A stretch of DNA of 64,000 nt from the human T2T-CHM13v2.0 reference genome, Homo sapiens, in the NCBI RefSeq assembly GCF_009914755.1, contig NC_060938.1; one strand, written 5' to 3'. The notes under the pieces are model-generated. The model did not search any database. It was not told the origin of the DNA and saw only the letters and a program-made list of their open reading frames with translations. The position numbers were made by a program, and so were the translations under genes. Of the stretch, positions 23,201-38,002 are shown in pieces. Position 1 is the first letter of the stretch, and each line of letters begins with the position of its first letter.

Positions 23201-26200
23201 AATCAGTGCAGAGATATCTCACAATGCACCCATAGGGAGAGCTTAGACAGGGTTCACATCACCTCAGTGATCAGTGCAGAGGTATGTCACAATGCCCCCT
23301 TAGGCAGAGCCTAGACATAAGTTACATCACCTTGATGATCAATACAGAGTGATGACACGAAGCACCTTGTAGGCAGAGCCTAGAGAAGAGTTACGTCACC
23401 TGCGTGATCAGTGCAGAGATATGTCACAATGCCACCTGTAAGAAGAGCCTAGAGAAGAGTTGCACCACCGGGGTGATCAGTGCAGAGATATATTACAATG
23501 CCCCCTGTAGGCAAAGCCTAGACAAGAGTTACATAACCTCGGTGATCACTTCAGAGATATGGCAAAACGCCCCTGTAGGCAGAGCCTAGAAAAAGTTACA
23601 TCACCTATGTGATCAGTGCAGAGATATGTCACAATACCCCCTTTAAGTAGAGCCTAGACAAGAGTTACATCACCTGGGTGATCAGGGCAGAGATATGTCA
23701 CAATGCCCCCTGTAGGCAGAGCCCACACAAGAGTTGCATCACCTCCGTGTTCAGTGCAGAGATATGTCTCAATGTCTCCTGTTGGCAAAGCCCAGAAAAG
23801 AATTACATCATCTCGGTCATCAGTGCAGAGATATGTCAAAATGCCCCTGAGGGCAGAGCCTAGAAAAAATTTACATCACCTGGGTGATCAGTGCAGAGAC
23901 ATGTCACAATGTCCATGTAGGCAGAGCCTAGACAAGAGTTACATCACCTGGGTGATCATTGCAGAGTGATGTCACAATGCCCTCTGTAGGCAGAGACTAG
24001 AGAAGTTACCTCACCTGAGAGATCAGTGCAGAGATATGTCACAACGCCCTCTGTAGGCAAAGACTAGTCAACAGTTACATTACCTGTGTGATCAGTGCAG
24101 ATATATGTCACTATGTCCCTGTGGCCAGAGCCTAGACAAGAGTTACATCACCTGGGTGATCAGTGCAGAGATAAGTCACAATGTCTCCAGCAGGCAGAGC
24201 CTAGACAAGAGTTACATCACCTCGGTGATCAGTGCAGAGATATGTCACAATGCCCCCTGTAGGCAGATCCCAGACAAGAGTTGCATCACCTCGGTGATCA
24301 GTGCAGTGATATGTCTCAATGCCCTCTGTCAGCGAAGCCTGTACAAGTTACATCATCTCGGTGATCAGTGCAGTGATATGTTAAAATGCCCCTGTAGGCA
24401 GAGCCTAACAAGAGTTACATCACCTGGGTGATCAGTGCAGAGATATCTCACAATACCCCCTGTAAGCTGAGCCTAGACAAGAGTTACATCAACTGGGTGA
24501 TCAGTGCAGAGATATGTCATAAATCTCACTGTAGGCAAAGCCTTGACAAGTGTTACAACACCTCAGTGATCAGTGCAGAGATATGTCCCAATGCCCCTGT
24601 AGGCAGAGCTTAGACAAGAGTCACATCTCCTAGTTGATCAGTGCAGAGATACGTCACAGTGCTCCCATAGGCAGAGCCTAGACAAGACTTACATAACCCT
24701 GGTGATCCGTGTAGAATGATGTCACAACGCCCTCTGTAGGCAGAGACTGGAAAAGTTACTTCACCTGGGTGATCAGTGCAGAGATATGTCACAATGCCGT
24801 TTGTAGGCAGAGCATAGGGAAGAGATGCATCACCTGGGTGATCAGTGCAGAGATATGTCACAATGTCCCCTGTAGGCAAAGCCTAGGCAAGAGTTACATC
24901 ACTTTTGTCATCAGTTCAGAGATATGTCAAAACGCCCCTGTAGGCAGAGCCTAGACAAGAGTTACATCACCTAGTTGATCAGTGCAGAGATATTTCACAA
25001 TACCCCCTGTAGGCAGAGGGTAGACAAGAGTTACATCACCCAGGTGATCAGTGCAGAGATATTTTACAATACCTCCTGTCGGCAGATCCTAGACAAGAGT
25101 TGCATCACCTGGGTGATCAGGGCAGACATACTTCACAATGCCCCCTGTAGGCAGAGGGTAGATCAGAGTTACATCACCTAGGTGATCAGTGCAGAGATAT
25201 GTCAAAAAGCCCCTTGTAGGCAGAGCCTAGACAAGAATTCTCTCCCCGGGGTGATCAGTGCAGAGATATGTCACAAGGCCCCTGTAGGCAGAGCTTAGAT
25301 GAGTTACATCACCTGGGTGATCAGTGCAAAGATATGTCACAAAACCCCCTGTAGACAAAGCCTAGACAATTGTTACATCACTTGGGTGATCCGTGGAGAG
25401 ATCTCTCACAATTCCCCTGTAGGCAGAGCTTATATAACAGTTACATCACCTGGGTGATCAGTGCAGAGATATTTCACAGTGCCCCCAGAGGCAGATGCAA
25501 GACAAGAGTCTGTCACCTGGATGATCAGTGCAGAAATACGTCACAATGCCCTCATAGGTAGAGCCTGGACAAAAGCCCCATCACATGGATGATCATTGCA
25601 AAGTTATGTGACAAAGCAACCTTTAGTCAGATCCTAGACAAAGGTTACATCACCTGGGTGATCAGTGCAGAGATATGTTACAATGCACCCTGTAAGCAAT
25701 GCCTAGATAAGAGTTACATCACCTCGGTGATCACTTCAGAGATATGTCATAACGCCCCTGTAGGCAGAACCTAGAAATGAGTTACATCACCTGGGTGATC
25801 AGGGCAGAGATATCACAATGCGCCCTGTAAGGAGAGCCCAGACTAGAGTTGCATCACCTCGGTGATCAGTGTAGAGATATGTCTCAATTAGTCCTGTCGG
25901 CAAAGCCCAGAGAAGAGTTACATCATCTCGGTGATCAGTGCAGAGATATGTCAAAATGCCTCTGTGAGCAGAGCCTAGACAAAATTTACATCACCTGGGT
26001 GATCAGTGCAGAGACATGTTACAATGTCCATGTAGGTAGAGCCTAGACAATGGTTACATCACCTGGGTGATCATTGCAGAGTGATGTCACAACGCCCTCT
26101 GTAGGCAGAGACTAGAGAAGAGTTACATTACCTGTGTGATCAGTGCAGATATATGTCACTATGTCCCTGTGGCCAGAGCCTAAACAAGAGTTACATCACC

Positions 26201-26746
26201 TGGGTGATCAGTTCAGAGATATGTCGCATTGCCTCCATAGGCAGATCCAAGACAAGAGTCCGTCACCTGGGTGATCAGTGCAGAAATATGTGACAATGCC
26301 CCCAATAGGCAGAGCCTAGAGAAGAGTCCCATCACCTGGGTGATCAGTGCAGAGTTATACCACAAAGCCCCCTGTAGGCAGAGCCTAGACAAGAGTTCCA
26401 TCACCTGGTTGATCAGTGTAGAGATATGTCACAATGCCACTGTAGGCAGAGCCTAGACAAAAGTCCCATCACCTGGGTGATCAGTGCAGAGATATGTCAC
26501 AAAGCTCCTGTAGGCAGAGCCTAGACAAGGGTTACATCACTTGGTTGATCAGTTCAGAGATGTGTCACAATGCCCATGTAGGCAGAGCCTAGGCAAGAGC
26601 TACAACATCTGAGTGATCAATGCAGTGATATGTCACTATGCCCCAATAGGCAGAGCATAGACAAGTGTTACATCACTTGGGTGATCAGTGCAGAGATAGG
26701 TCACAATGCCCCCATACACAGAGACTATAAAATAGTCTCATCACCT
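11264..26746 (+). repeat. Beta satellite (68-bp Sau3A family), about 228 diverged monomers
   Basis: Consensus gatcagtgcagagatatgtcacaatgcccctgtaggcagagcctagacaagagttacatcacctgggt repeated head-to-tail in one orientation. Confidence 0.97.
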
Positions 26747-29700
26747 GCACTACAGCCTGTGTGACAGAGGGAGACCCTGTCGAAAGAAAGTAGTGGAATG
26801 GAAGGGATTGAAATGGAATGGAACGGATTGGAGTAGAGTGGAGTGGAATTGAGTGGAGTGGAGTGGAGTGCAGTGGAATGGAATGGTGAAATGAAATGTG
26901 AGCTGAGATTGTGCCACTGCACACCAGCCTGGGTGACAGAGTGAGATACAGTCAAAAGAAAGTACTGGAATGGAATGGAGTGGAATGGAATGTAATGGAG
27001 TTGAGAGCAGTGGAGTGGAGTAGAAAGGAGTGGAATGGAATGGGATGGAATGGAAAGGACAGGAGTGGACTGGAATGGAGTGGAGTGGAGAGGAATGGAT
27101 TGGAGTGGAGTGGAGTGGAATTTAATGGAGTAGAATACAATGGAATGGTGAAATGAAATGTGAGCTGAGATTGTGCCACTGCACTCCAGGCTTGGTGACA
27201 GAGTGAGATACTCTCTAAAGAAAGGAATGGAATTGAATGCAGTGGAATGGAATGGAATGGATTGGAGTGGAGTGGAGTGGAGTGAAGTGGATTGGAGTAC
27301 AATCAAGAGGAATGGAAAAAGGTGGAATGGAATGGAATGAAGAGGAGTGGAGAGGGGTGGAGTGGAGTGCAGTGGGATGGAGCGGAATGGAACGGGATGG
27401 AGTGGAATGGAGTGGAGTGGAGTGCATTGGAGTGGAGAGGACTGGAATGGAGTGGAATGGAATCGGATGTAATGGAATGTAGTGCAGTGGAGGGGAGTGG
27501 AGTGGAACAGAGTGGAATGGAACAGAATTGAATGGAATGGAATAGAATGGAAAGGAATGGAATGGAATGGAATGCAATGGAATAGAATGCAACGCAATGG
27601 AAAGATGACATGTAATGTGAGCTGAGATTGTGCCACTGCACTCCAGCCAGGGTGACAAAGTGATATCCTGTCAAAGGAAAGGAATGGAATGCAATGGAGT
27701 GGAGTGGAGTGGAATGGAATGGGATGGAGTGGAATGGAGTGGAGTGGAGTGGAGTGAAATACAATGGAATGGAATGGGATGGAATGGAATGCAATGGAAT
27801 GGTGAAAAGAAATGTCAGCTGAGATTGTGCCACTGCACTCCAGCCTTTGTGACAGAGTGAGATCCTGTGGAAAGAAAGGAATGGAATGGAATGGAATGGA
27901 GTGCAATGGAATGCAGTGGAGTGGAGCAGAGTGGAGTGGAATTGAGTGGAGTGGAATTGAGTGGAGTGGAATTGAGTGGAGTGGAATTGAGTGGAGTGGA
28001 ATTGAGTGGAGTGGAGTAGAGTGGAATGGAATGGAGTGGAGTGGAATGGAGTGGCGTGGAGTGGAGTGGAGTAGAGTGGAATGGAATGGAGTGGAGTGGA
28101 ATGGAGTGGAGTGGACTGGAGTGGAATGGAGAGGAGTGGAGTGGAAGGGAATGGAATGGAATGCAGTGGAATGGAATGGAATGAAATGGTGAAAAGAAAT
28201 GTGTGACACAGGGAGATCCTGTCAAAAGAAAGGAGTGGAATGGAAGGGATTGGAATGGAATGGAATGGATTGGAGTAGAGTGGAGTGGAATTGAGTGGAG
28301 TGGAGTGCAGTGGAATGGAATGGAGTGGAATGGTGAAATGATATGTGAGCTGAGATTGTGCCACTGCACACCAGCCTGAGTGACAGAGTGGGATCCTGTC
28401 AAAAGAAAGGAATGTAATGGAATGGAGTGGAATGGAATGGATTGGAGTGGAGTGGAGGGAAGTGGAGTGGAAAGGAGTGGAATGCAATGGGATGGAATGG
28501 GAAGGAATGGAATGGACTGGAGTGGAGTGGAGTGGAATGTACTGGAGTGGAGTGGAGTGGAATGTACTGGAGTGGAGTGGAGTGGAATAGAATGGAATAG
28601 AATGGAATTAAATGGGGAAATATAATGTGAGCTGAGATTGTGTCACTACGCTCCAGGCTGGGTGACAGAGTGAGATACTCTTGAAAGAAAGGAATGGAAT
28701 GGAATGCAGTGTAATGGAATGGAGTGGACTGCAGAGGAGTGGAGTGGAGTGGAGTGGAATGGAGACGAATGGAATGAGATGGAATGGAATGCAATGAAGT
28801 GGAGTGGAGTGCAGCCGAATGGAGAGGAATGGAATGGGATGGAGTGGAATGGAGTGGAGTGGAGTGCAGTGGAGTGGAGAGGAGTGGAATAGAGTGGAAT
28901 GGAATAGGATGTAATGGAATGTAGAGGAGTGGAGTGGAGTCGGAGTCGGAGTGTGATGGAATGTAATGGAAAGGAATGGAATGCAATTGAATGCAAAGAA
29001 ATAGAAAGTTGACATGTAATGTGAGCTGAGATAGTGCCACTGCAGTCCAGCCTGGGTGACACGGAGATATCCTGTGGAAAGGAAGCTATGGAATGTAATG
29101 GAGTGAAATGGTATGGAATGGAATGGAATGGAGTTGATTGGAGTTGAGTGGAGTGGAACAGAGTCGAATGGAATGGGATGGAGTGGCATGGAATGGAGTG
29201 GAGTGGAGTGGAGTGAAATAGAGAGGAATGGAATGGGATGGAATGGAATGCAATGCAATGGAATGGTGAAAAGAGATGTGAGCTGAGATTGTGCCACTGC
29301 ACTCCAGCCTCTGTGACAGAGTGAGATCCTTTGGAAAGAAAGGAACGGAATGGTATGGAATGGAGTGGAGTAGAGTGGAGTGGAATGGAATTGAATGGAG
29401 TGGAGTGGAATGGAATGGAATGGAACGCAATGGAAAGCAATGGAATGCAATGGAATAGAATGCAGTGAAAAGGAAAGTTGACATGTAATGTGAGCAGAGA
29501 TTGTGCCACTGCACTCCAGCCTGGTGACACAGTGATATCCTGTCAAAAGAAAGGAATGGAATGCAATGGAATGGAGTGGAGTGGAGTGGAGTGGAATGCA
29601 ATGGAATGGAGTGGAGTGGAATGGAATGGAGAGGAATGGAGTGGAGTGGAGTGGAATGCAATCAAATGGAATGTAATGGAAGGGAATGGAATGGAAGGGA

Positions 29701-32700
29701 ATGGAATGGAAGGGAATGGAATGAAATGGAATGGAGTGGAGTGGAGAGGAGTGGAATGGAATGGAGTGGAATGGAATGGAATAGAGTGGAATGGAGTGGA
29801 AAAGAGTAGAATGGAATGTGGTGGAATGAAATGGAGTGGAGTGGACTGGAGTAGAGTGGAATGGAATGCAGTGGAATGGAATGGAGTGTAATGGAATGGA
29901 ATGGAATGGAACGGAATGGAATGGAATGAAATGGTGAAAAGAAATGTGTGCTGAGATTGTGTCACTGCACTAAACCTGTGTGACAGAGGGAGATCCTGTC
30001 GAAAGAAAGGAATGAAATGGAAGGGATTGGAATGGAATGGATTGGAGTGGAGTGGAGTCGAATTGAGTGGAGTGGAGTGCTGTGGAATAGAATGGAATGG
30101 AATGGTGAAGTGAAATGTGAGATGAGACTGTACCACTGCACACCAGCCTGGGTGACAGAGTGAGATCCTGTCAAAAGAAAGGAATGGAATGGAGTGGAGT
30201 GGAGTGGAAAGTAGTGGAATGGAATGGGATGGAATGGAAAGGAGTGGAGTGGACTGGAATGGAGTGGAGTGGAATGGAGTGGAATGGATTGGAGTGGAGT
30301 GGAGTGGGATGGAATGGAATGGAATGGTGAAATGAAATGTGAGCTGAGATTGTGCCACTGCGCTCCAGGCTGGGTGACAGAGTGAGATACTTTCAAAAGA
30401 AAGGAATAGAATGGAATGCAGTGGAATGGAATGGCATGGAATGGAGTGGAGTGGGGTGAAGTGGAGTGGACTGGAATGGAGAGGAATGGAATAGGATGGA
30501 ATGGAATGGAATGAAGTGGAGATGAGTGGGGTGGAGTGGATTGCAGTGGAATGGAGCAGAATGGGATGGAGTGGAATGGAGTGGAGTGCAGTGGAGAGGA
30601 GAGGAGTGGAATGGAGTGGAATGGAATCGGATGTAAAGGAATTTAGTGGAGTGGAGTGGAACGGAGTGGTATGGAATGGAATTGAATGGAATGGAATGGT
30701 GAAATGAAATGTGATCTAAGATTGTGCCACTGAACTCCAGTCTGGTTGATAGAGTGAGATCCAGTAGAAATAAAGGAATGGAATGGAATGGTGTGGAGTG
30801 GAGTGGAGTGGAATGGAGTAGAGTGGAATGGAGTGGAGTGGAATGGAATGGCATGGAGTGGAGTGGAATGGAATGGAGTGGAGTGGAATGGAGTGGAGTG
30901 GAATGGAATGGAAAGGAGTGGAGTGGAATGGAATGGCATGGAATGGAGTGGAGTGGAGAGAAGTAGAGTGGAATGGAATGGAGTGGAGTGCAGTGGAGTG
31001 GAATGGAGTGGAGTCGAATGGAATGGGATGGAGTGGAATGGAATGGAGTGGAGTGGAGTGAAATAGAGTGGAATAGAATGGGATGGAATGGAATGCAATG
31101 GAATGGTGAAAAGAAATGTGAGCTGAGATTGTGATACTGCACTCCAGCCTTTGTGACAGAGTGAGATCCTGTGGAAAGAAAGGAATGGAATGGAATGGAG
31201 TGGAATGGAATGCAATGGAGGGGAGGGGAGTGGAATGGAGTGGAGTGGAGGGGAGTGGAATTGAGTTGAGTGGAGTGGAATAGAGTGGAATGGAATGGAG
31301 TGGAGTGGACTGGCATGGAGTGGAATGGAGTGGAGTGGATTGGAGTGGAATGGAGAGGAGTGGAGTAGAGTGGAATGGAATGGAGTGGAGTGGAATGGAG
31401 TGGCATGGAGTGGAATGGAGTGGAGTGGAGTGGAATGGAGAGGAGTGGAGTGGAGTGGAAGGGAATGGAATGGAATAGAGTGGAATGGAATGGAATGAAA
31501 TGGTGAAAAGAAATGTGTGCTGAGATTGTGCCACTGTGCTACAGCCTGTGTGACACAGGGAGATCCTTTTGAAGGAAAGGAGTGGAATGTAAGGGATTGG
31601 AATGGAATGGAATGGAATGGAATGGATTGGAGTGGAGTGGAGTGGAATGGAATTGAGTGGAGTGGAGTGCAGTGGAATGGAATGGAATGGAGTGGAATGG
31701 TGAAATGAAATGTGAGCTGAGATTGTGCCACTGCACACCAGCCTGGGTGACAGAGTGAGACCCTGTCAAAACAAAGGAATGGAATGGAGTGGAATGGAAT
31801 GGAGTGGAGTGGAAAGGAGTGGAATGGAAAGGAGTGGAATGGAATGGACTGGAATGGAGTGGAGTGGAATGGAATGGAATGGAATAGAATGGAATGGAAT
31901 GGTGAAATGAAATGTGTGCTGAGATTGTGCCACTACACTCCAGGCTGGGTGACAGAGTGAGATACTCTCGAAAGAAAGGAATGGAATGGAATGGAATGCA
32001 GTGTAATGTAATGTAATGGAATAGAATGGAATGGAGTGAACTGGAGAGGAGTGGAGTGAAGAGGAGTGGAGTGGAATGGAGAGGAATGGAATCGAATGAA
32101 GTGGAGTGGAGTGGAGTGCAGTGGAATGGAGCGGAATGGAATGGGATGGAGTGGAATGGAGTGGAGTACAGTGGAGTGGAGAGGAGTGGAATGGAGTGGA
32201 ATGGAATCGGATGTAATGGAATGTAGAGGAATGGAGTGGAGTGGAGTGGAGCCGAACGGAGTGGAATGGAATGGAAAGGAATGGAATGGAATGGAATGCA
32301 ATGGAAAGGAATGGAATGCAATTGAATGTAATGGAATAGAATGCAATGCAATGGAAAGTTGACATGTAATATGAGCTGAGATAGTGCCACTGCACTCCAG
32401 CCTGGGTGACACCTTGATATACTGTGGAAAGGAAGCTATGGAATGCAATGGAGTGAAATGGTATGGAATGGAATGGAATGGAGTTGAGTGGAGTGGAGTT
32501 TAGTGGAATGGAGTCGACTGGAGCGGAATGGAGTGGAATGGAGTGGAGTGGAGTGAAATAGAGAGGAATGGAATGGGATGGAATGGAATGCAATGGAATG
32601 GTGAAAAGAAATGTGAGCTGAGATTGTGCCACTGCACTCCAGCCTATGTGACAGAGTGAGATCCTTTGGAAAGAAAGGAACGGAATGGCATGGAATGGAA

Positions 32701-34556
32701 GGGAGTGGAGAGGAGTGGAGTGGAATGGAATGGAGTGGGATGGAATGGAGTGGGATGGAATGCAATGGAAATGAATGGAATGGAATGGAACAGAATGGAA
32801 CGGAATGGAATGGAATGGTGAAAAGAAATGTGTGCTGAGATTGTGCCACTGCGCTGCACCCTGTGTGAGAGGGAGATCCTGTTGAAAGAAAGGAGTGCAA
32901 TGGAAGGGATTGGAATTGAATGGAATGGAATAGGTTGGAGTGGAGTGGACTGGAATTCAGTGGATTGGAGTGGAGTACAGTGGAATGGAATGGAATGGAA
33001 TGGTGAATTGAAAAGTGGGCTGAGATTGTGTCAATGCACTCCAGCCTGGGTGACAGAGTGAGATCCTGTCAAAAGAAAGGAATGGAATCTAATGGAGTGG
33101 AATGGAATGGAGTGGAGTAGAGTGCATTGGAGAGGAAAGGAGTGGAATGGAATGGAAAGGAGTGGAGTGGAATGGAATGGAGTGGAGTGGAATGGATTGC
33201 AGTGGAGTGGAGTGGAGTGGAGCGGAATGGAACTGAGTGGATTGGAATTGAATGGAATGGTGAAATGAAATGTCAGCTGAGATTGTGCCACTGCTCTCCA
33301 GGCTGGGTGATGGAGTGAGATACTCTCAAAAGAAAGGAAAGGAAAGGAATGCAGTGGAATGGAATGGAGTGGACTGGAGTGGAGTGGAGGGAAGTGGAGT
33401 GGAGTGGAATGGAGAGGAATGGAATGGGATAGAATGGAATGGAATGAAGTGGAGTGGAGTGGGGTGGAGCGGAGTCCAGTGGAATGGAGTGGAATGGAAT
33501 GGGATGGAGTGGAATGGAGTGGTGGGGAGAGCAGTGGAGTGGAGAGGAGTGGAATGTAATCGGATGTTATAGAATGTAGTGGAGTGGAGTGGAACGGAAA
33601 GGAATGGAATACAATGGAATGCAATGGAATTCAATAGAATGCAATGGAATAGAATGCAATGAAATGGAAAGTTGACATGTAATGTGAGCAGAGATTGTGC
33701 CACTGCACTCCAGCCTGGGTGACACAGTGATATCCTGTCGAAACAAAGGAATGGAATGCAATGGAGTGAAGTGGAATGGAATGAAAGGGAGTGGAGTGGA
33801 GTGGAGTGGAGCAGAGTGGAGTGGAATGCAATGGAATGGAATGGAGTGGAGTGGAATGGAATGGAGTGGAATGGAATGGCATGGAATGGAGTGGAGTGGA
33901 ATGGAATGGAGAGGAATGGAGTAGAGTGGAGTGGAATGCAATGGAATGGAATGTAAAGGAAGGGAATGGAATGGAGTGGAGTGGAGTGGAATGTGGTGGA
34001 GAGGAGTGGAGGGGAGTAGAATGGAATGGAGTGGAATGAAATGGAATGGAGTGGAAAAGAGTGGAATGCAATGCAGTGGAATGAAACGGAGTGGAGTGGA
34101 CTGGAGTAAAGTGGAATGGAATGCAGTGGAATGGAATGGAGTGGAGTGTAGTGGAGTGGAATGGAATGGAATGGTGAAATGAAATGTGAGCTGAGATTGA
34201 GCCACTGTACTGCAGGCAGGGTGACAGAGTGAGATACGTTTGAAAGAAAGGAATAGCGTGGAATGCAGTGGAATCGAATGGAATGGAATGGAGTGGACTA
34301 GAGTGGAGTGGAGTGAGGTGAAGTAGAGTGGACTGGAATGGAGAGGAATGGAATGGGATGGGATGGAATGGAATGAAGTGGAGATGAGTGGGGTGGAGTG
34401 GATTGCAGTGGAATGGAGCAGAATGGAATGGGATGGAGTGGAATGGAGTGCAGTGGAGTGCAGTGGAGACGAGAGGAGTGGAATGGAGTGGAATGGAATT
34501 GGATATAATGGAATTTAATGTAGTGGAGTGGAGTAAAGTGGAACGGAGTGTTATGG
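26747..34556 (+). repeat. Composite satellite: GGAAT/GGAGT pentamer tracts punctuated by 26 Alu 3'-end fragments
   Basis: Recurrent gtgagctgagattgtgccactgcactccagcctgggtgacagagtgagatcctgtcaaaagaaagg about every 150-500 bp between mixed GGAAT/GGAGT tracts. Confidence 0.93.
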
Positions 34557-37500
34557 AATGGAAAGGAATAGAATGGATTCGAATGGAATGGAATGGAATG
34601 GAATGGACTCGAATGGAATGGAATCAAATGAAATGGAATCTAATGAAATGTAATCGAATGGAATGGACTCGAATGGAATGGAATGGAATCAAAAGGAATG
34701 GAAATGGAATGGACTCAAATGGAATGGACTGGAATGGAAGGCAATCGAATGGAATGGAATCGAATGGAATGGAATCAAATGTAATGGACTGGAATGGAAT
34801 GGATTCAAATGGAATGGACAGTAATGGAATGGTCCCGAAAGGAATGGAATGGAATGGAATGGAACGGACTCGAATGAAATGGCCTGGAATGGAATGGACT
34901 TGAATGGAATGGACTCGAGTGAAATGGAATCAAATGGAATGGAATAGAATTTAATGGAATGGAATGGAATGGATTGGAATGGAAAGGAATTGAATCGAAT
35001 CAAATGTTAAGGAATCAAATGGAAGGAAACGGAATGGAATGGAATGGATTCGAAGGGAATGGAATGGAATGGAATACAATGGAATGGAATGACATGGAAT
35101 GGAATGGAATGGATTCGAAAGGAATGGAATGGAATAGACTCAAAAGGAATGGACTCAAAAGGAATGGACTGGAATGGCATGGAATCAAATGGAATGGAAT
35201 GGAATTGAATGCAATGGAATGGAATGGAATGGACTCGAATGGAATGGAATGGAAAGGAATGGAATGGACTGGAATGAAATGGAATTGAATGGAATGGAAT
35301 GGACAGGAATGGAATGGACTCAAATGGAATGGAATCGAAAGGAATGGAATTGAATGGAATGGAATAGAATGGAATGGAATAGACTTGAAGGTAATGGACT
35401 GGAATGGAATGGACTTGAATGGAATGGACTCGAATGGAATGGAAACGAATGGAATGGAATCTAATTGAATGGAATCGAATGGAATGCCAACGAATGGAAT
35501 GGAATCAAATGAAAGGGAATCAATTGGAATGGACTCGAATGGAATGGACTCGAATGTAATGGACTGGACTGGAATGGTATGGAATGGAATTCAAAGCAAT
35601 GGAATGAAATGGAATGGATCCGAATGGAATGGACTGGAATGGACTGGACTGGAATGGACTGGAATGGAAAGGAATGGAATGGAAGGGAATGCATTGGACT
35701 CGAATGTAATGGAATTGCAAAGAATGGAATGGAATGGAATGGAATAGAATCAAACGGAATGGAATAGAATGGAATGGATAGGAATTGAATTGAATGGAAT
35801 GGCATGGAATGGAATCAAATGGAATGGAATGGAATGAATTCGAACGGAATGGAATGGAATGGACTTGAAAGGAATGGACTGGAATGGAATGGAATGGATT
35901 CAAATTTAATGGAATGGAATAGAATGGAATGGAATGGATTCGAATTTAATGGAATGGAATGGAATGGATTGGAATGGAATTGATTTGAATGGAATGGAAT
36001 CGAACGGACTGGAATGGAATGGAATGGAATCGAGTGGAATGGCATAAAATGCACTAGAATCTAATGGAATGGAATGGATTAAAATGGAATGGAATGGACT
36101 CGAATGGAATAGACTAGAATGGAATGGACTCGAAAGGAAGAGGAATCGAACGGAATGGAATAGAACAGAATGGAATCGAATCGGATGGCATGCAATCAGA
36201 TGGCATGCAATTGGATGGAACGGATTAGAATGGAATGGAATGCAATCGAAATTGAATGGAATGGACTGGAATGGAAAGGACTCGCATGGAATGGACTCGC
36301 ATGGAATGGAATGGAATGGAAAGGAAAGGAAAGGAAAGCAATGGAATAGAATGGTACGGACTTGAATGGAACGGACTCGAATGGAACAGACTTGAATGGA
36401 ATGGACTCGAATGGGGTGGAATCAAATGGGATGGAATCAAATGGAACGGACTGCAATGCAATGGACTTGAAAGGAATCGCCTCGAATGGAATGGAATGGT
36501 ATGGAATGGAATAGAGTGGATTGTACTCGAATGTAATCGACCGGAATGGAATGGAATTCAATGAAATGGACTTGAATGGAATGCAATCGAATGGAATGGA
36601 ATGGTATGGAATGGAATGGAATGTAATTCAATGTACTCGAATGGAATGTAATCGAATGGTATGCATTCGAATGGAATGTAATCCAATGGAATGGAATTGG
36701 ATGGAATGGACTGTAGTGGAATGGACTGGAATGGAATGGACTCAAAGGGAATGGATTGGAATGATATGGACTTGAATGGAATGGAATTGAATGGAAGGGA
36801 TTTGAACCGAAAGGAATGGAATTGAATGGAATGGAATGGAATGCCATGGAATGGAATCGAATGGAATGGAATCGAATGGAATGGAATCGAATGGAATGGA
36901 ATCGAATGGAATGGAATCGAATGGAGTGTAATAGTACAGTCTCGAATGGAATCTAATCGAATGGAATGGAAAGGAATGGAATGGAACCGAATGGAATGGA
37001 CTGGAATGGAATGGAATCGAATGGAATGGACTCAAAGGGAATGAAATGGAATGGAATGGACACGAATGGAATGGATTCGAATATAATGGATGCAAATGGA
37101 ATGGATTCAATTGGATGGACTCGAATGGAATGTAATCGAATGGAATGGAATCAAACGGGATGGAATCAAATGGAATAGAATCGAATGGAATGGAATCGAA
37201 TGGAATGGACTGGAATGGAATGGACTTGATTGGAATGGACTCGAATGGAATGGACTCGAAAGGAAATGAATCGAATGGAATGGAATAGAATGGAATGGAA
37301 TCTATTCTAATGGAATGGAATTGAATGGAATACAATCGAATGGAATACAATGGAATGGAATGGAATAGACTGGAACGGACTTGAATGGAATGGAATCTTC
37401 TTGAATGGAATGGATTGGAAGCGACTGGAATGGACTTGAATGGAATGGAATCTTCTGGAATGGAATGAAATGGATTTGATTGGAGTGGACTGGAATGGAG

Positions 37501-38002
37501 TGGACTAGAATGGAATGAACCCAAAAAGAAAGGAATCGAATGGAATGGAATAGAATTGAATGCAATGGAATGGAATGGAATACAATCAAATGGAATGGAA
37601 TCGAGTGGAATGGAATCGAGTGGAATGGAATCGAGTGGAATGGAATGGAATGGAATCGAATACAGTAGACTGGAATGGAATGGACTCGAATGGATTGGAC
37701 TGGAATGGAATGAACTCGAATGGAATGCAATCGAATGGAATGCAATCGAATGGAATGCAATCGAATGGAATGCAATCGAATGGAATGCAATCGAATGGAA
37801 TGCAATCGAATGGAATGCAATCGAATGGAATTAAATCGAATGGAATGGATTGGAATGGAATGGAATCGAATATAATGGAATGGAACATAATGGAATCAAA
37901 TGTAATGGACTCGAATGCAATTCAGTGGAATCGAATGGCCTCGAATGGAATGAACTTGAACGGAATGGAGTCTAATGTAATGGAATCGAATGCAATGGAA
38001 TC
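34557..38002 (+). repeat. Satellite III / HSat3 (GGAAT)n with GGACT/CGAAT variants
   Basis: ggaatggactcgaat and ggaatcgaat variants; almost no GGAGT, no Alu fragments, no HSat2 CATCATC motif. Confidence 0.93.

What the first reader, a model, noticed from the sequence alone, without database searches (positions are those of the whole stretch)
26747..34556. Repeat-spacer satellite: 26 Alu 3'-end fragments separated by variable GGAAT/GGAGT tracts
Seen: a 55-60 bp element (gtgagctgagattgtgccactgcactccagcctgggtgacagagtgagatcctgtc+aaaagaaagg), equal to the terminal part of an Alu right arm, recurs at about 26747 (partial), 26899, 27161, 27618, 27815, 28201 (deleted), 28346, 28628, 29022, 29279, 29491, 29948, 30118, 30340, 30712, 31119, 31517, 31713, 31916, 32372, 32614, 32832, 33017, 33273, 33685, 34187. 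All are on the same strand, intact copies share the same 5' breakpoint (..gaaatgtgagctgag or ..gacatgtaatgtgagc), none has a TSD, and they are separated by about 100-450 bp of two-variant pentamer sequence. Inference: these are not 26 insertions but one Alu-fragment+pentamer unit amplified as a composite satellite monomer, which automated masking would split into simple repeats and Alu scraps. Known context: GGAGT-rich satellite III subfamilies and Alu-containing satellites (DYZ2/HSat1B) exist; I cannot confirm whether this organisation has been described.
Basis: partly seen in the sequence, partly recalled or inferred. Interest (0 to 1): 0.8.

Follow-up and report, generated by a model that had tools for sequence, protein, structure and literature searches.

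The report
Alu-tagged satellite III array, chr14p
This stretch is an ordinary block of human satellite III DNA whose repeat unit carries one captured scrap of an Alu element, a family-wide feature already noted in the complete-genome papers, although its likely source locus on chromosome 15 may be new.

Summary
There are 26 same-strand copies of an Alu 3'-end fragment at the listed positions (26745-34251), embedded in GGAAT/GGAGT pentamers. They are not separate insertions: 24 of 26 share both junctions and a non-Alu flank.

- Five fragment subtypes recur in fixed order, giving a ~1.3-1.8 kb higher-order unit present about five times.
- The whole block is duplicated on chr13 and chr15 (99%), chr22 and distal Yq.
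- The same junction occurs 2,459 times in the genome, with hits on 15 chromosomes.
- 451 of 491 sampled copies keep the 5' junction.

This is GGAGT-rich HSat3, most like subfamily 3A4 (pTRS-47/pR clones). T2T papers already state that HSat3 units include TE fragments and that HSat3-associated Alu fragments on Y and the acrocentrics cluster together. Verdict: real, single-origin, already known in kind.

One possibly new lead: a unique array on chr15 at 28.64 Mb starts with a full Alu, has (GAAAT)n spacers, shares the junction and is closest to the family consensus. It may mark the progenitor.

The parts
24004..26713 (+). Beta-satellite-like array (69-bp monomer, 341-bp higher period) that abuts the HSat3 block. 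Context, not part of the composite.
   Evidence: TRF. The GATC-containing 68-69-bp unit is read. The beta-satellite name rests on the 68-bp definition quoted.
26745..34560 (+). GGAGT-rich HSat3 array carrying 26 Alu modules. Each module is about 77-79 nt: flank GGTGAAATGAAAT, a 56-nt Alu 3' core, then (A/G)AAAGAAAGG.
   Evidence: 56-nt core. GGAGT/GGAAT ratio 0.81.
26745..28168 (+). Higher-order copy 1: modules u01 (26745-26790, type E, cut by the beta-satellite junction), u02 (26889-26962, A), u03 (27151-27225, C), u04 (27610-27682, B), u05 (27805-27879, D).
   Evidence: Coordinates. Types from the alignment, nearest neighbours, and paralogue labelling.
28169..29946 (+). Higher-order copy 2 with one extra module: u06 (28203-28233, E, 5'-deleted), u07 (28336-28410, A), u08 (28618-28692, C), u09 (29014-29085, B), u10 (29269-29343, D), u11 (29483-29554, extra B).
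29947..31515 (+). Higher-order copy 3: u12 (29937-30010, E), u13 (30108-30182, A), u14 (30330-30404, C), u15 (30702-30776, degenerate, in the B position), u16 (31109-31183, D).
31516..32830 (+). Higher-order copy 4: u17 (31506-31580, E), u18 (31703-31777, A), u19 (31905-31979, C), u20 (32364-32435, B), u21 (32604-32678, D).
32831..34560 (+). Higher-order copy 5, incomplete: u22 (32821-32893, E), u23 (33006-33080, A), u24 (33263-33337, C), u25 (33677-33749, B), u26 (34177-34251, C-like), then the last GGAGT-rich spacer.
34561..38000 (+). Adjacent HSat3 of another type (CGAAT/GGACT variants) with no Alu modules. The end at about 38000 is approximate.
   Evidence: Sequence. Pentamer fraction 0.37-0.51 up to 38000 and 0.01 beyond. 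Near matches (1-2 mismatches) to the published 3A1/3A2 marker 24-mers.

Best explanation
Window 26745-34560 is a block of classical human satellite III (HSat3) of the GGAGT-rich kind, most like subfamily HSat3A4. Its repeat unit contains one captured Alu scrap.

A single ancestral junction was created once. It consists of about 13 nt of GAAAT-type flank, the last 56 nt of an Alu with all its CpGs already decayed, and a short A-rich tail remnant. That junction was then copied passively along with the surrounding pentamers by unequal exchange or replication slippage. The sequence of events was:
1. Early copies diverged into five subtypes.
2. A five-module unit of about 1.4 kb (E-A-C-B-D) was then amplified as a higher-order (nested) repeat.
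3. Spacers kept growing and shrinking by whole pentamers.
4. The finished block, together with its beta-satellite flank, was spread among acrocentric short arms and distal Yq by segmental exchange.

Shown: the single origin, the five-type order, the pentamer-quantised spacing, the paralogues and the genome-wide spread. Inferred: the recombination mechanisms, and that the fragment is a neutral passenger. It lacks the Alu left arm, and therefore, from general knowledge of Alu architecture, the Pol III promoter boxes. Also inferred, at about even odds: the module began as an Alu 3' end plus (GAAAT)n-tail minisatellite like the one still present on chr15 at 28.64 Mb, one period of which was captured into HSat3.
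For: - Local copies: 26 + strand copies with E down to 3e-35. 24 of 26 have the same 5' junction and flank, and 25 of 26 the same 3' junction.
- Higher-order structure: mean distance between copies dips at lags 5, 11 and 16 (0.128-0.132, against 0.165-0.197 at other lags). Nearest neighbours fall at higher-order lags in 21 of 26 cases (permutation mean 8.65, maximum 20, 0 of 2000 reach 21). Within-type distance is 0.108 and between-type 0.187.
- Pentamer quantisation: 20 of 25 unit lengths and 17 of 20 anchor distances in the window are =2 mod 5. Pooled over the window and the 16 other non-paralogous HSat3 regions (four of which gave no anchor matches), 135 of 249 are =2 mod 5 (chi-square p 8e-41).
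- Genome-wide: the 5' junction 32-mer, which includes 16 nt of non-Alu flank, occurs 2,459 times at <=3 mismatches, and the 3' junction 34-mer 1,325 times. Reversed-pattern controls gave 0. Twenty sampled 10-kb regions each hold 13-31 copies, all on one strand per region. Of 491 copies, 451 keep the 5' junction, 467 the 3' junction and 431 both.
- E-A-C-B-D order recurs on chr13, 15, 22, Yq, 16 and 1, and partly on chr3, 4, 9 and 14.
- The block is colinear with chr13 and chr15 at 99.0%, chr22 at 92.5-94.8% and Yq at 88-96%.
- Family: of 28 published subfamily-specific 24-mers containing GGAGT-GGAGT, 21 are 3A4 and 7 are 3A5. 2 of 8 tested 3A4 markers occur exactly in the array, and 0 of 2 tested 3A5 markers. 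GGAGT-poor HSat3 samples (chr9 60.0 Mb, chr15 9.0 Mb) lack the module.
- Prior print.
- Origin lead.
Against: - The higher-order unit is irregular: lengths of 1442, 1778, 1569 and 1315 bp, one extra module and one degenerate module. Simple offset autocorrelation shows no sharp period.
- The most common published 3A4 marker 24-mer is absent from the window. The arrays that do carry it have a derived 1-nt deletion in the module that the window lacks. Membership in 3A4 proper is therefore only weakly supported.
- The clone sequences (pTRS-47, pR-1/2/4) could not be obtained.
- The one-clade test against dispersed Alus is merely not rejected (p-AU 0.51) and has little power on 56 nt.
- The T2T-Y preprint reports no local homogenisation and no clustering of HSat3-Alu fragments by subgroup or chromosome, and derives them from AluY of PAR1. 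I did not test PAR1 Alus.
- For the origin lead, no TSD brackets the chr15 array, no transitional spacers were found, and the 56-nt core alone is a generic decayed Alu end (434 matches at <=3 mismatches).
Confidence: 0.9

Rival explanations
1. HSat3-first origin. A 5'-truncated Alu (or an Alu later deleted at its 5' end) landed inside a pentamer array, and the GAAAT GAAAT flank is just two mutated pentamers. The chr15 28.64 Mb array is then an early offshoot that was joined in register to a resident Alu by homology-driven repair, and its spacers were later replaced by (GAAAT)n grown from the flank.
For: - The flank G(G/A)T-GAAAT-GAAAT can be read as degenerate pentamers.
- No TSD brackets the chr15 array, so in-situ growth from one insertion is not shown.
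- The family is vastly larger in HSat3 (2,459 junctions) than at chr15 (25 copies).
- No transitional spacers were seen.
Against: - It needs an in-register join to a full Alu plus complete spacer replacement (0 GGAAT, 0 GGAGT and 197 GAAAT in the chr15 spacers).
- The founder would have to be consensus-identical, which only 1 of 491 HSat3 modules is.
- The head Alu keeps an A-rich tail start (ATAAAAAATGAAATG) that looks like an original A-tail turning into the microsatellite.
Confidence: 0.3
2. Twenty-six independent Alu retrotranspositions, or repeated targeted insertions, into a pentamer array.
For: None beyond the resemblance of each copy to an Alu 3' end.
Against: The breakpoint, upstream flank, downstream flank and strand are identical in 23-25 of 26 copies. 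No copy has its own TSD, and there are no A-tails of varying length. The same junction occurs thousands of times elsewhere.
Confidence: 0.01
3. The module is kept because it does something, for example as a protein-binding or transcription-related element or a phasing signal inside HSat3 arrays.
For: - Junction-flank columns are as conserved as the Alu core across 491 copies.
- The module persists in arrays on 15 chromosomes.
- HSat3 is transcribed under stress at other loci (review passages).
Against: - Core divergence is high and similar everywhere (8-13% from consensus).
- Deleted and truncated copies persist (u01 and u06).
- A whole sub-clade carries a 1-nt core deletion.
- The largest HSat3 arrays sampled lack the module entirely.
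- No functional data were examined here.
Confidence: 0.04
4. Assembly artefact: a collapsed or mis-joined satellite region.
For: Acrocentric short arms are hard to assemble (general knowledge).
Against: Chr13, chr15 and chr22 each carry 26 copies, and the inverted Yq sample 25, with nearly the same spacings. Identity is graded (99% down to 88%), which is not what a collapse would give.
Confidence: 0.01

Closest known systems
HSat3 subfamily A4 (Altemose 2014), represented by clones pTRS-47 (1366 bp; chr14, 22), pR-1 (1529), pR-2 (1556), pR-4 (1026) and pE-2 (584)
   Same: - Pentamer-derived, GGAGT-rich satellite on acrocentric short arms and Y.
- Kilobase-scale repeat units of similar size to the E-A-C-B-D unit here (1.3-1.8 kb).
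- 2 of 8 tested 3A4 marker 24-mers are present exactly.
   Different: - The commonest 3A4 marker is absent from the window.
- Arrays that carry it have wider module spacing and a 1-nt core deletion.
- Whether those clones contain the Alu module is not stated in any text I could read.
HSat3-associated Alu fragments described in the T2T-Y preprint (10.1101/2022.12.01.518724) and the statement in the T2T centromere preprint (10.1101/2021.07.12.452052) that HSat3 units include TE fragments
   Same: The same phenomenon: Alu fragments interspersed in HSat3 on Y and the acrocentrics, forming one group that is deeply separate from the DYZ2 Alu. My data agree.
   Different: - In the passages I read, those texts do not give the fixed junctions, the non-Alu flank, the five-subtype order or the chr15 array.
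- They report no clustering by chromosome. Here the copies cluster by position in the higher-order unit.
- They derive the fragments from AluY of PAR1, which I did not test.
HSat1B / DYZ2 (2.4-2.5 kb unit containing one Alu)
   Same: A satellite whose unit contains an Alu-derived part that was amplified passively.
   Different: An unrelated unit. The Yq12 sample shows a ~2.4-kb period with no pentamers. Only the Alu core matches (profile positions 34-98), it differs at many sites, and it has no shared flanks.
Alu-tail microsatellites and minisatellites (general class; recalled, no paper read here)
   Same: The chr15 28.64 Mb array looks like an Alu whose A-tail became (GAAAT)n. The Alu 3' end plus tail was then duplicated in tandem 25 times.
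   Different: If it is the source of the HSat3 module, one period of such a minisatellite was captured into a megabase-scale satellite family. I found no such proposal in print.

Membership tests
HSat3 (classical satellite III) | Derived from tandem (GGAAT)n = (CATTC)n pentamers | tested here: met
   TRF period 5 across 26966-38000. Exact GGAAT/GGAGT words cover 43-53% of bases from 27001 to 36000 on the + strand and about 0-1% on the other strand.
HSat3 (classical satellite III) | Pericentromeric or acrocentric short-arm location | tested here: met
   The window is C14:3,410,001-3,474,000 (hub annotation). Paralogues lie on the proximal parts of C13, C15 and C22 and on C24.
HSat3A4 (Altemose 2014) | [quoted passage not shown] | tested here: inconclusive
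   The top marker is absent. 2 of 8 further 3A4 markers are present exactly (28573, 29388), and 0 of 2 3A5 markers. Only 10 of the several thousand listed markers were tested. Each marker occurs on only 1-1.6% of 3A4 reads, so two hits in 7.8 kb fits 3A4 but is thin.
HSat3A4 (Altemose 2014) | Distribution on chr13, 14, 15, 21, 22 and Y | tested here: met
   Paralogous blocks on chr13, 15, 22 and Yq. The module is also found on chr21. Module-bearing arrays also occur on non-acrocentric chromosomes.
pTRS-47 higher-order repeat | 1366-bp tandem unit, sequence identity to the clone | not testable with these tools
   The unit here is 1315-1778 bp. The clone sequence and the paper are not held.
HSat1B / DYZ2 | About 2.4-2.5 kb unit made of an AT-rich part plus an Alu part | tested here: not met
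   The window units are pentamer-based. The DYZ2 sample shares only the Alu core, with many differences and no flank.
Independent Alu retrotransposition | Own target-site duplication, own A-tail, variable truncation point | tested here: not met
   The junctions and flanks are the same in 23-25 of 26 copies.
T2T 'composite satellites' (units made entirely of TEs) | Unit composed wholly of TE pieces | tested here: not met
   Only 56 nt of each 171-502-bp unit is Alu-derived, and the rest is pentamer satellite. The definition is as quoted.

The most novel reading that the evidence does not exclude
All the thousands of Alu modules in GGAGT-rich HSat3 descend from one period of an Alu-tail minisatellite. 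The euchromatic array on chr15 at 28.64 Mb is the surviving progenitor locus, or its closest relative. That array has a full Alu, then 24 further copies of its last 56 nt, each separated by (GAAAT)n. If so, the non-pentamer flank of every module is a relic of that tail, and the birth of this HSat3 clade can be dated and ordered against a single identifiable Alu insertion.
Probability: 0.4. Interest if true: 0.5.

Novelty: already known. Interest (0 to 1): 0.25.

Why it matters
As given, the finding is ordinary. It is a correctly read piece of HSat3, in which an embedded Alu fragment is a known family feature.

It still has some practical value. The module is a fixed, non-pentamer landmark every 170-500 bp. 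That makes otherwise featureless pentamer arrays alignable, reveals their higher-order units, and separates sub-clades (for example by the 1-nt core deletion).

If the chr15 lead holds, a whole HSat3 clade spread over 15 chromosomes would trace to one datable Alu event. That would give a direct handle on when and how classical satellite subfamilies arose and spread from the acrocentric short arms.

Tried and rejected
- Plain offset autocorrelation and a k-mer distance spectrum gave no sharp period, because spacers vary in length. Whole-unit global alignments gave only a blurred picture. The order became clear only from the module alignment.
- The 27-mer pattern (8,607 hits) was set aside as a copy-number estimate, because decayed dispersed Alus can match it.
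- Searching Dataset S2 of PMC4022460 for Alu-core, flank or frequent spacer 24-mers gave nothing. A control search showed that the file is searchable. So the module is simply not among the subfamily-specific markers.
- The identity of the chr15 head Alu's last 56 nt to the family consensus was dropped as stand-alone evidence, because two ordinary dispersed Alus (chr4, chr8) match as well. They do, however, keep the terminal TC and plain A-tails.
- A TSD around the chr15 array was sought and not found.
- An upstream/downstream direct repeat around the module (AAAAGAAATG / AAAAGAAAGG) was considered as a TSD. I dropped it because it cannot be told apart from tail remnant plus degenerate pentamers.
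- Transitional GAAAT/GGAAT spacers were sought in the short Y units and not found.
- Papers that could not be read: Choo 1990, Choo 1992 and Jarmuz 2007. Bandyopadhyay 2001 was not sought by id; I saw it only as a citation and in Table S1.
- The Hoyt et al. repeat preprint had no occurrence of HSat3 or 'Alu fragment'.
Only four regions, and later two short ones, were obtained. As a result, subfamilies A1, A2, A3, A6 (DYZ1) and B1-B4 were not sampled.
Full report
**What is there**

Reading 26400-29400 shows a 69-bp tandem array ending at about 26713. After it come GGAAT/GGAGT pentamers, regularly interrupted by a sequence that resembles an Alu 3' end. TRF reports the 69-bp/341-bp array at 24004-26713 and a period-5 array from 26966 to the end of the range I gave.

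A blastn of one copy (27151-27225) against the whole 64-kb window returns 37 rows. Of these, 26 are + strand copies between 26745 and 34251. The other 11 are dispersed Alu ends on both strands, elsewhere in the window. The dispersed Alus align only from query position 9-13 onward, so the 9-10 nt upstream of GTGAGC in the satellite copies are not Alu sequence.

Exact GGAAT/GGAGT words cover 43-53% of bases from 27001 to 36000, 37-41% from 36001 to 38000, and about 1% beyond. At about 34560 the array changes to a pentamer type with CGAAT and GGACT variants and no Alu fragments.

**One origin, not 26 insertions**

In the alignment with flanks, 24 of 26 copies have the same 5' breakpoint preceded by GGTGAAATGAAAT. 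Five copies carry the variant TGACATGTAAT. All but one have the same 3' end...GATCCTGTC(A/G)AAAGAAAGG, followed by pentamers. Copy 1 is cut at the beta-satellite boundary, and copy 6 has lost its 5' half. No copy has flanks of its own, so none has its own target-site duplication.

**Higher-order structure**

The alignment shows five subtypes, which I labelled E, A, C, B and D. They recur in that order: [u01-u05], [u06-u10 plus an extra B], [u12-u16, with a degenerate copy in the B position], [u17-u21], [u22-u25 plus a C-like copy].

- Nearest neighbours lie at lags 5, 6, 10, 11, 16 and 21.
- Mean distance dips at lags 5, 11 and 16 (0.128-0.132, against 0.165-0.197 at other lags).
- 21 of 26 nearest neighbours fall at higher-order lags. 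The permutation mean is 8.65, and none of 2000 permutations reaches 21.
- Within-type distance is 0.108 and between-type 0.187.
- The higher-order copies measure 1442, 1778, 1569 and 1315 bp.
- Simple offset autocorrelation misses this structure, because spacers differ in length.

Spacer length changes are quantised. Twenty of 25 unit lengths and 17 of 20 anchor distances in the window are =2 mod 5. Pooled over the window and the 16 other non-paralogous HSat3 regions (four of which gave no anchor matches), 135 of 249 are =2 mod 5 (p about 8e-41).

**Genome-wide family**

The window's own genome can be searched.

- A 101-nt query spanning pentamer, junction, Alu and pentamer finds copies at 91-99% identity on many contigs.
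- The 5' junction 32-mer, half of which is non-Alu flank, occurs 2,459 times at <=3 mismatches. The 3' junction 34-mer occurs 1,325 times. Reversed controls gave 0.
- The listed hits lie on contigs 1, 3, 4, 7, 9, 10, 13-17, 20-22 and 24. Contig 24 is 62.46 Mb long and is taken to be Y.
- I fetched twenty 10-kb samples. Each holds 13-31 copies, all on one strand per sample.
- Of 491 copies, including the window's, 451 keep the 5' junction, 467 the 3' junction and 431 both.
- The flank columns are as conserved as the Alu core.

The E-A-C-B-D order recurs on chr13, 15, 22, Yq, 16 and 1, and in part on chr3, 4, 9 and elsewhere on chr14. Chr7 has a three-module unit, and several arrays show undifferentiated modules.

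The window block, with its beta-satellite flank, is colinear with chr13 and chr15 at 99.0%, chr22 at 92.5-94.8% and distal Yq at 88-96%. Chr1 and chr16 are older relatives at 77-81%.

**Which known family**

Altemose 2014 (PMC4022460; passages, Table S1, and searches of Dataset S2) defines HSat3A4 on chr13, 14, 15, 21, 22 and Y. It links that subfamily to clones pTRS-47 (1366 bp), pR-1, pR-2, pR-4 and pE-2.

- None of the 14 top marker 24-mers is exact in the window.
- Of the 28 listed markers that contain GGAGT-GGAGT, 21 are 3A4 and 7 are 3A5.
- Of 8 such 3A4 markers tested, 2 occur exactly in the array. Neither of the 2 tested 3A5 markers does.
- Module-bearing arrays have GGAGT/GGAAT ratios of 0.34-0.84.
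- GGAGT-poor samples from the large chr9 and chr15 arrays (ratios 0.03 and 0.07) lack the module.
- The Yq12 sample is DYZ2, whose Alu matches only in the core and differs at many sites.
- Arrays that carry the top 3A4 marker (chr14 8.30 Mb, chr17, chr10) share a 1-nt deletion in the module core, and their modules are spaced more widely. The window's array and chr15q lack that deletion.

I therefore file the array as GGAGT-rich HSat3, 3A4-like. Exact subfamily membership remains open.

**What is in print**

[quoted passage not shown] It cites Bandyopadhyay 2001.
[quoted passage not shown] It reports no local homogenisation and no clustering by chromosome, and it derives the fragments from PAR1 AluY.
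- I found no text giving the fixed junctions, the flank, the five-type order or a chr15 source (searches; passages; no hits).
- The original clone papers were not held, and bioRxiv supplements are closed. A description there cannot be excluded.

**A lead on origin**

One sample, chr15 at 28.64 Mb on the long arm (cytogenetic band not checked), is not pentamer satellite at all. A full-length Alu begins at L032:3621 and runs through ...ggaggttgca|gtgagctgag... to ...gatcctgtc. It continues into ATAAAAAATGAAATG and a (GAAAT)n tract. Then 24 further copies of the last 56 nt follow, each separated by (GAAAT)n, with a period of about 90-140 bp, ending at about L032:6717.

*For a shared origin with the HSat3 modules:*
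- The internal junction, ...AATGATGAAATGAAAT|GTGAGC, differs by one base from the HSat3 flank ...AATGGTGAAATGAAAT|GTGAGC. It includes the same irregular three-base unit.
- The GAAAT-spacer form is confined to this one locus: 6 of 8 hits, with the other 2 being G-variant copies on Y.
- Its spacers contain 0 GGAAT, 0 GGAGT and 197 GAAAT.
- Its copies lie 2.6% from the global module consensus, against 8-13% for every HSat3 array, and its own core consensus equals the global one.
- Only 1 of 491 HSat3 modules is consensus-identical, against 3 of 25 at chr15. A recent offshoot from a diverged HSat3 copy is therefore unlikely.

*Against, or neutral:*
- No TSD brackets the array.
- The 56-nt core is a generic decayed Alu end. 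There are 434 Alu-body-joined matches at <=3 mismatches and 3 exact ones.
- The two other exact ones, on chr4 and chr8, are ordinary Alus that keep the terminal TC and plain A-tails.
- No transitional spacers were found.

I put an Alu-tail-first origin at about even odds, and at roughly 0.4 that chr15 is the surviving source locus. The HSat3-first alternative stands at about 0.3.

- Breakpoints are homogeneous, and there are no individual TSDs.
- Holding 94 modules in one clade against 11 dispersed Alu ends and 2 DYZ2 copies is not rejected (p-AU 0.51). The test is weak on 56 nt.
- Novelty is refuted by the existing descriptions, although I could not check whether a named family model contains exactly this unit.

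**Verdict**

The single-origin interpretation is correct but understated. The structure is a known kind of HSat3, so interest is low, apart from the chr15 lead.

Noticed in passing
L032:3621-6717 (G000:C15:28,638,621-28,641,717): A unique array outside the pericentromere. A full-length Alu is followed by 24 further copies of its last 56 nt, separated by (GAAAT)n. It shares the junction and flank of the HSat3 modules and lies closest to their consensus. It is a possible progenitor locus.
   Followed up: partly
window 26735-26765: The junction between beta satellite and HSat3 falls inside the first Alu module (...catcac|ctgcactacagcctg...). Both partners contain CCTGGGTGA-like words, so a microhomology-mediated join is plausible. 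The same boundary is present in the chr13, chr15, chr22 and Yq paralogues.
   Followed up: partly
window 26745-34251 (module core): At all six positions where near-matching dispersed Alus still show CG (listing), the module consensus reads TG and never CA. The founder was therefore fully CpG-decayed, and on one strand only. The Alu consensus itself is recalled, not tested.
   Followed up: no
L012, L022, L023, L024 (C14:8.30 Mb, C17:22.51 and 27.82 Mb, C10:38.98 Mb): These arrays carry the top published HSat3A4 marker. They share a derived 1-nt deletion in the module core and have wide module spacing (about 230-1200 bp). This marks a distinct module sub-clade.
   Followed up: partly
G000:C22:5,964,747-6,002,695: Exact 3'-junction hits are spaced 12,620, 12,660 and 12,635 bp apart, which suggests a higher-order periodicity of about 12.6 kb on chr22.
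   Followed up: no
L018 (C24:10.92 Mb) and L020 (C7:57.73 Mb): Other nested units are built from the same module. The Y pericentromere has a clean five-module unit of about 1.27-1.33 kb (spacings about 180/122/385/190/400). Chr7 has a three-module unit of about 1.7 kb.
   Followed up: no
window 34561-38000: A second HSat3 type (CGAAT/GGACT variants; near matches to the 3A1/3A2 markers) directly abuts the Alu-bearing array. It ends at about 38000, before the ANKRD36B-like pseudogene region.
   Followed up: no
window 25500-35300: The whole stretch, comprising beta satellite and both HSat3 types, is a segmental duplicate. It is 99.0% identical to chr13 at 9.96 Mb and chr15 at 5.31 Mb, which fits recent exchange among acrocentric short arms. 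An inverted copy lies at distal Yq (62.06 Mb).
   Followed up: partly
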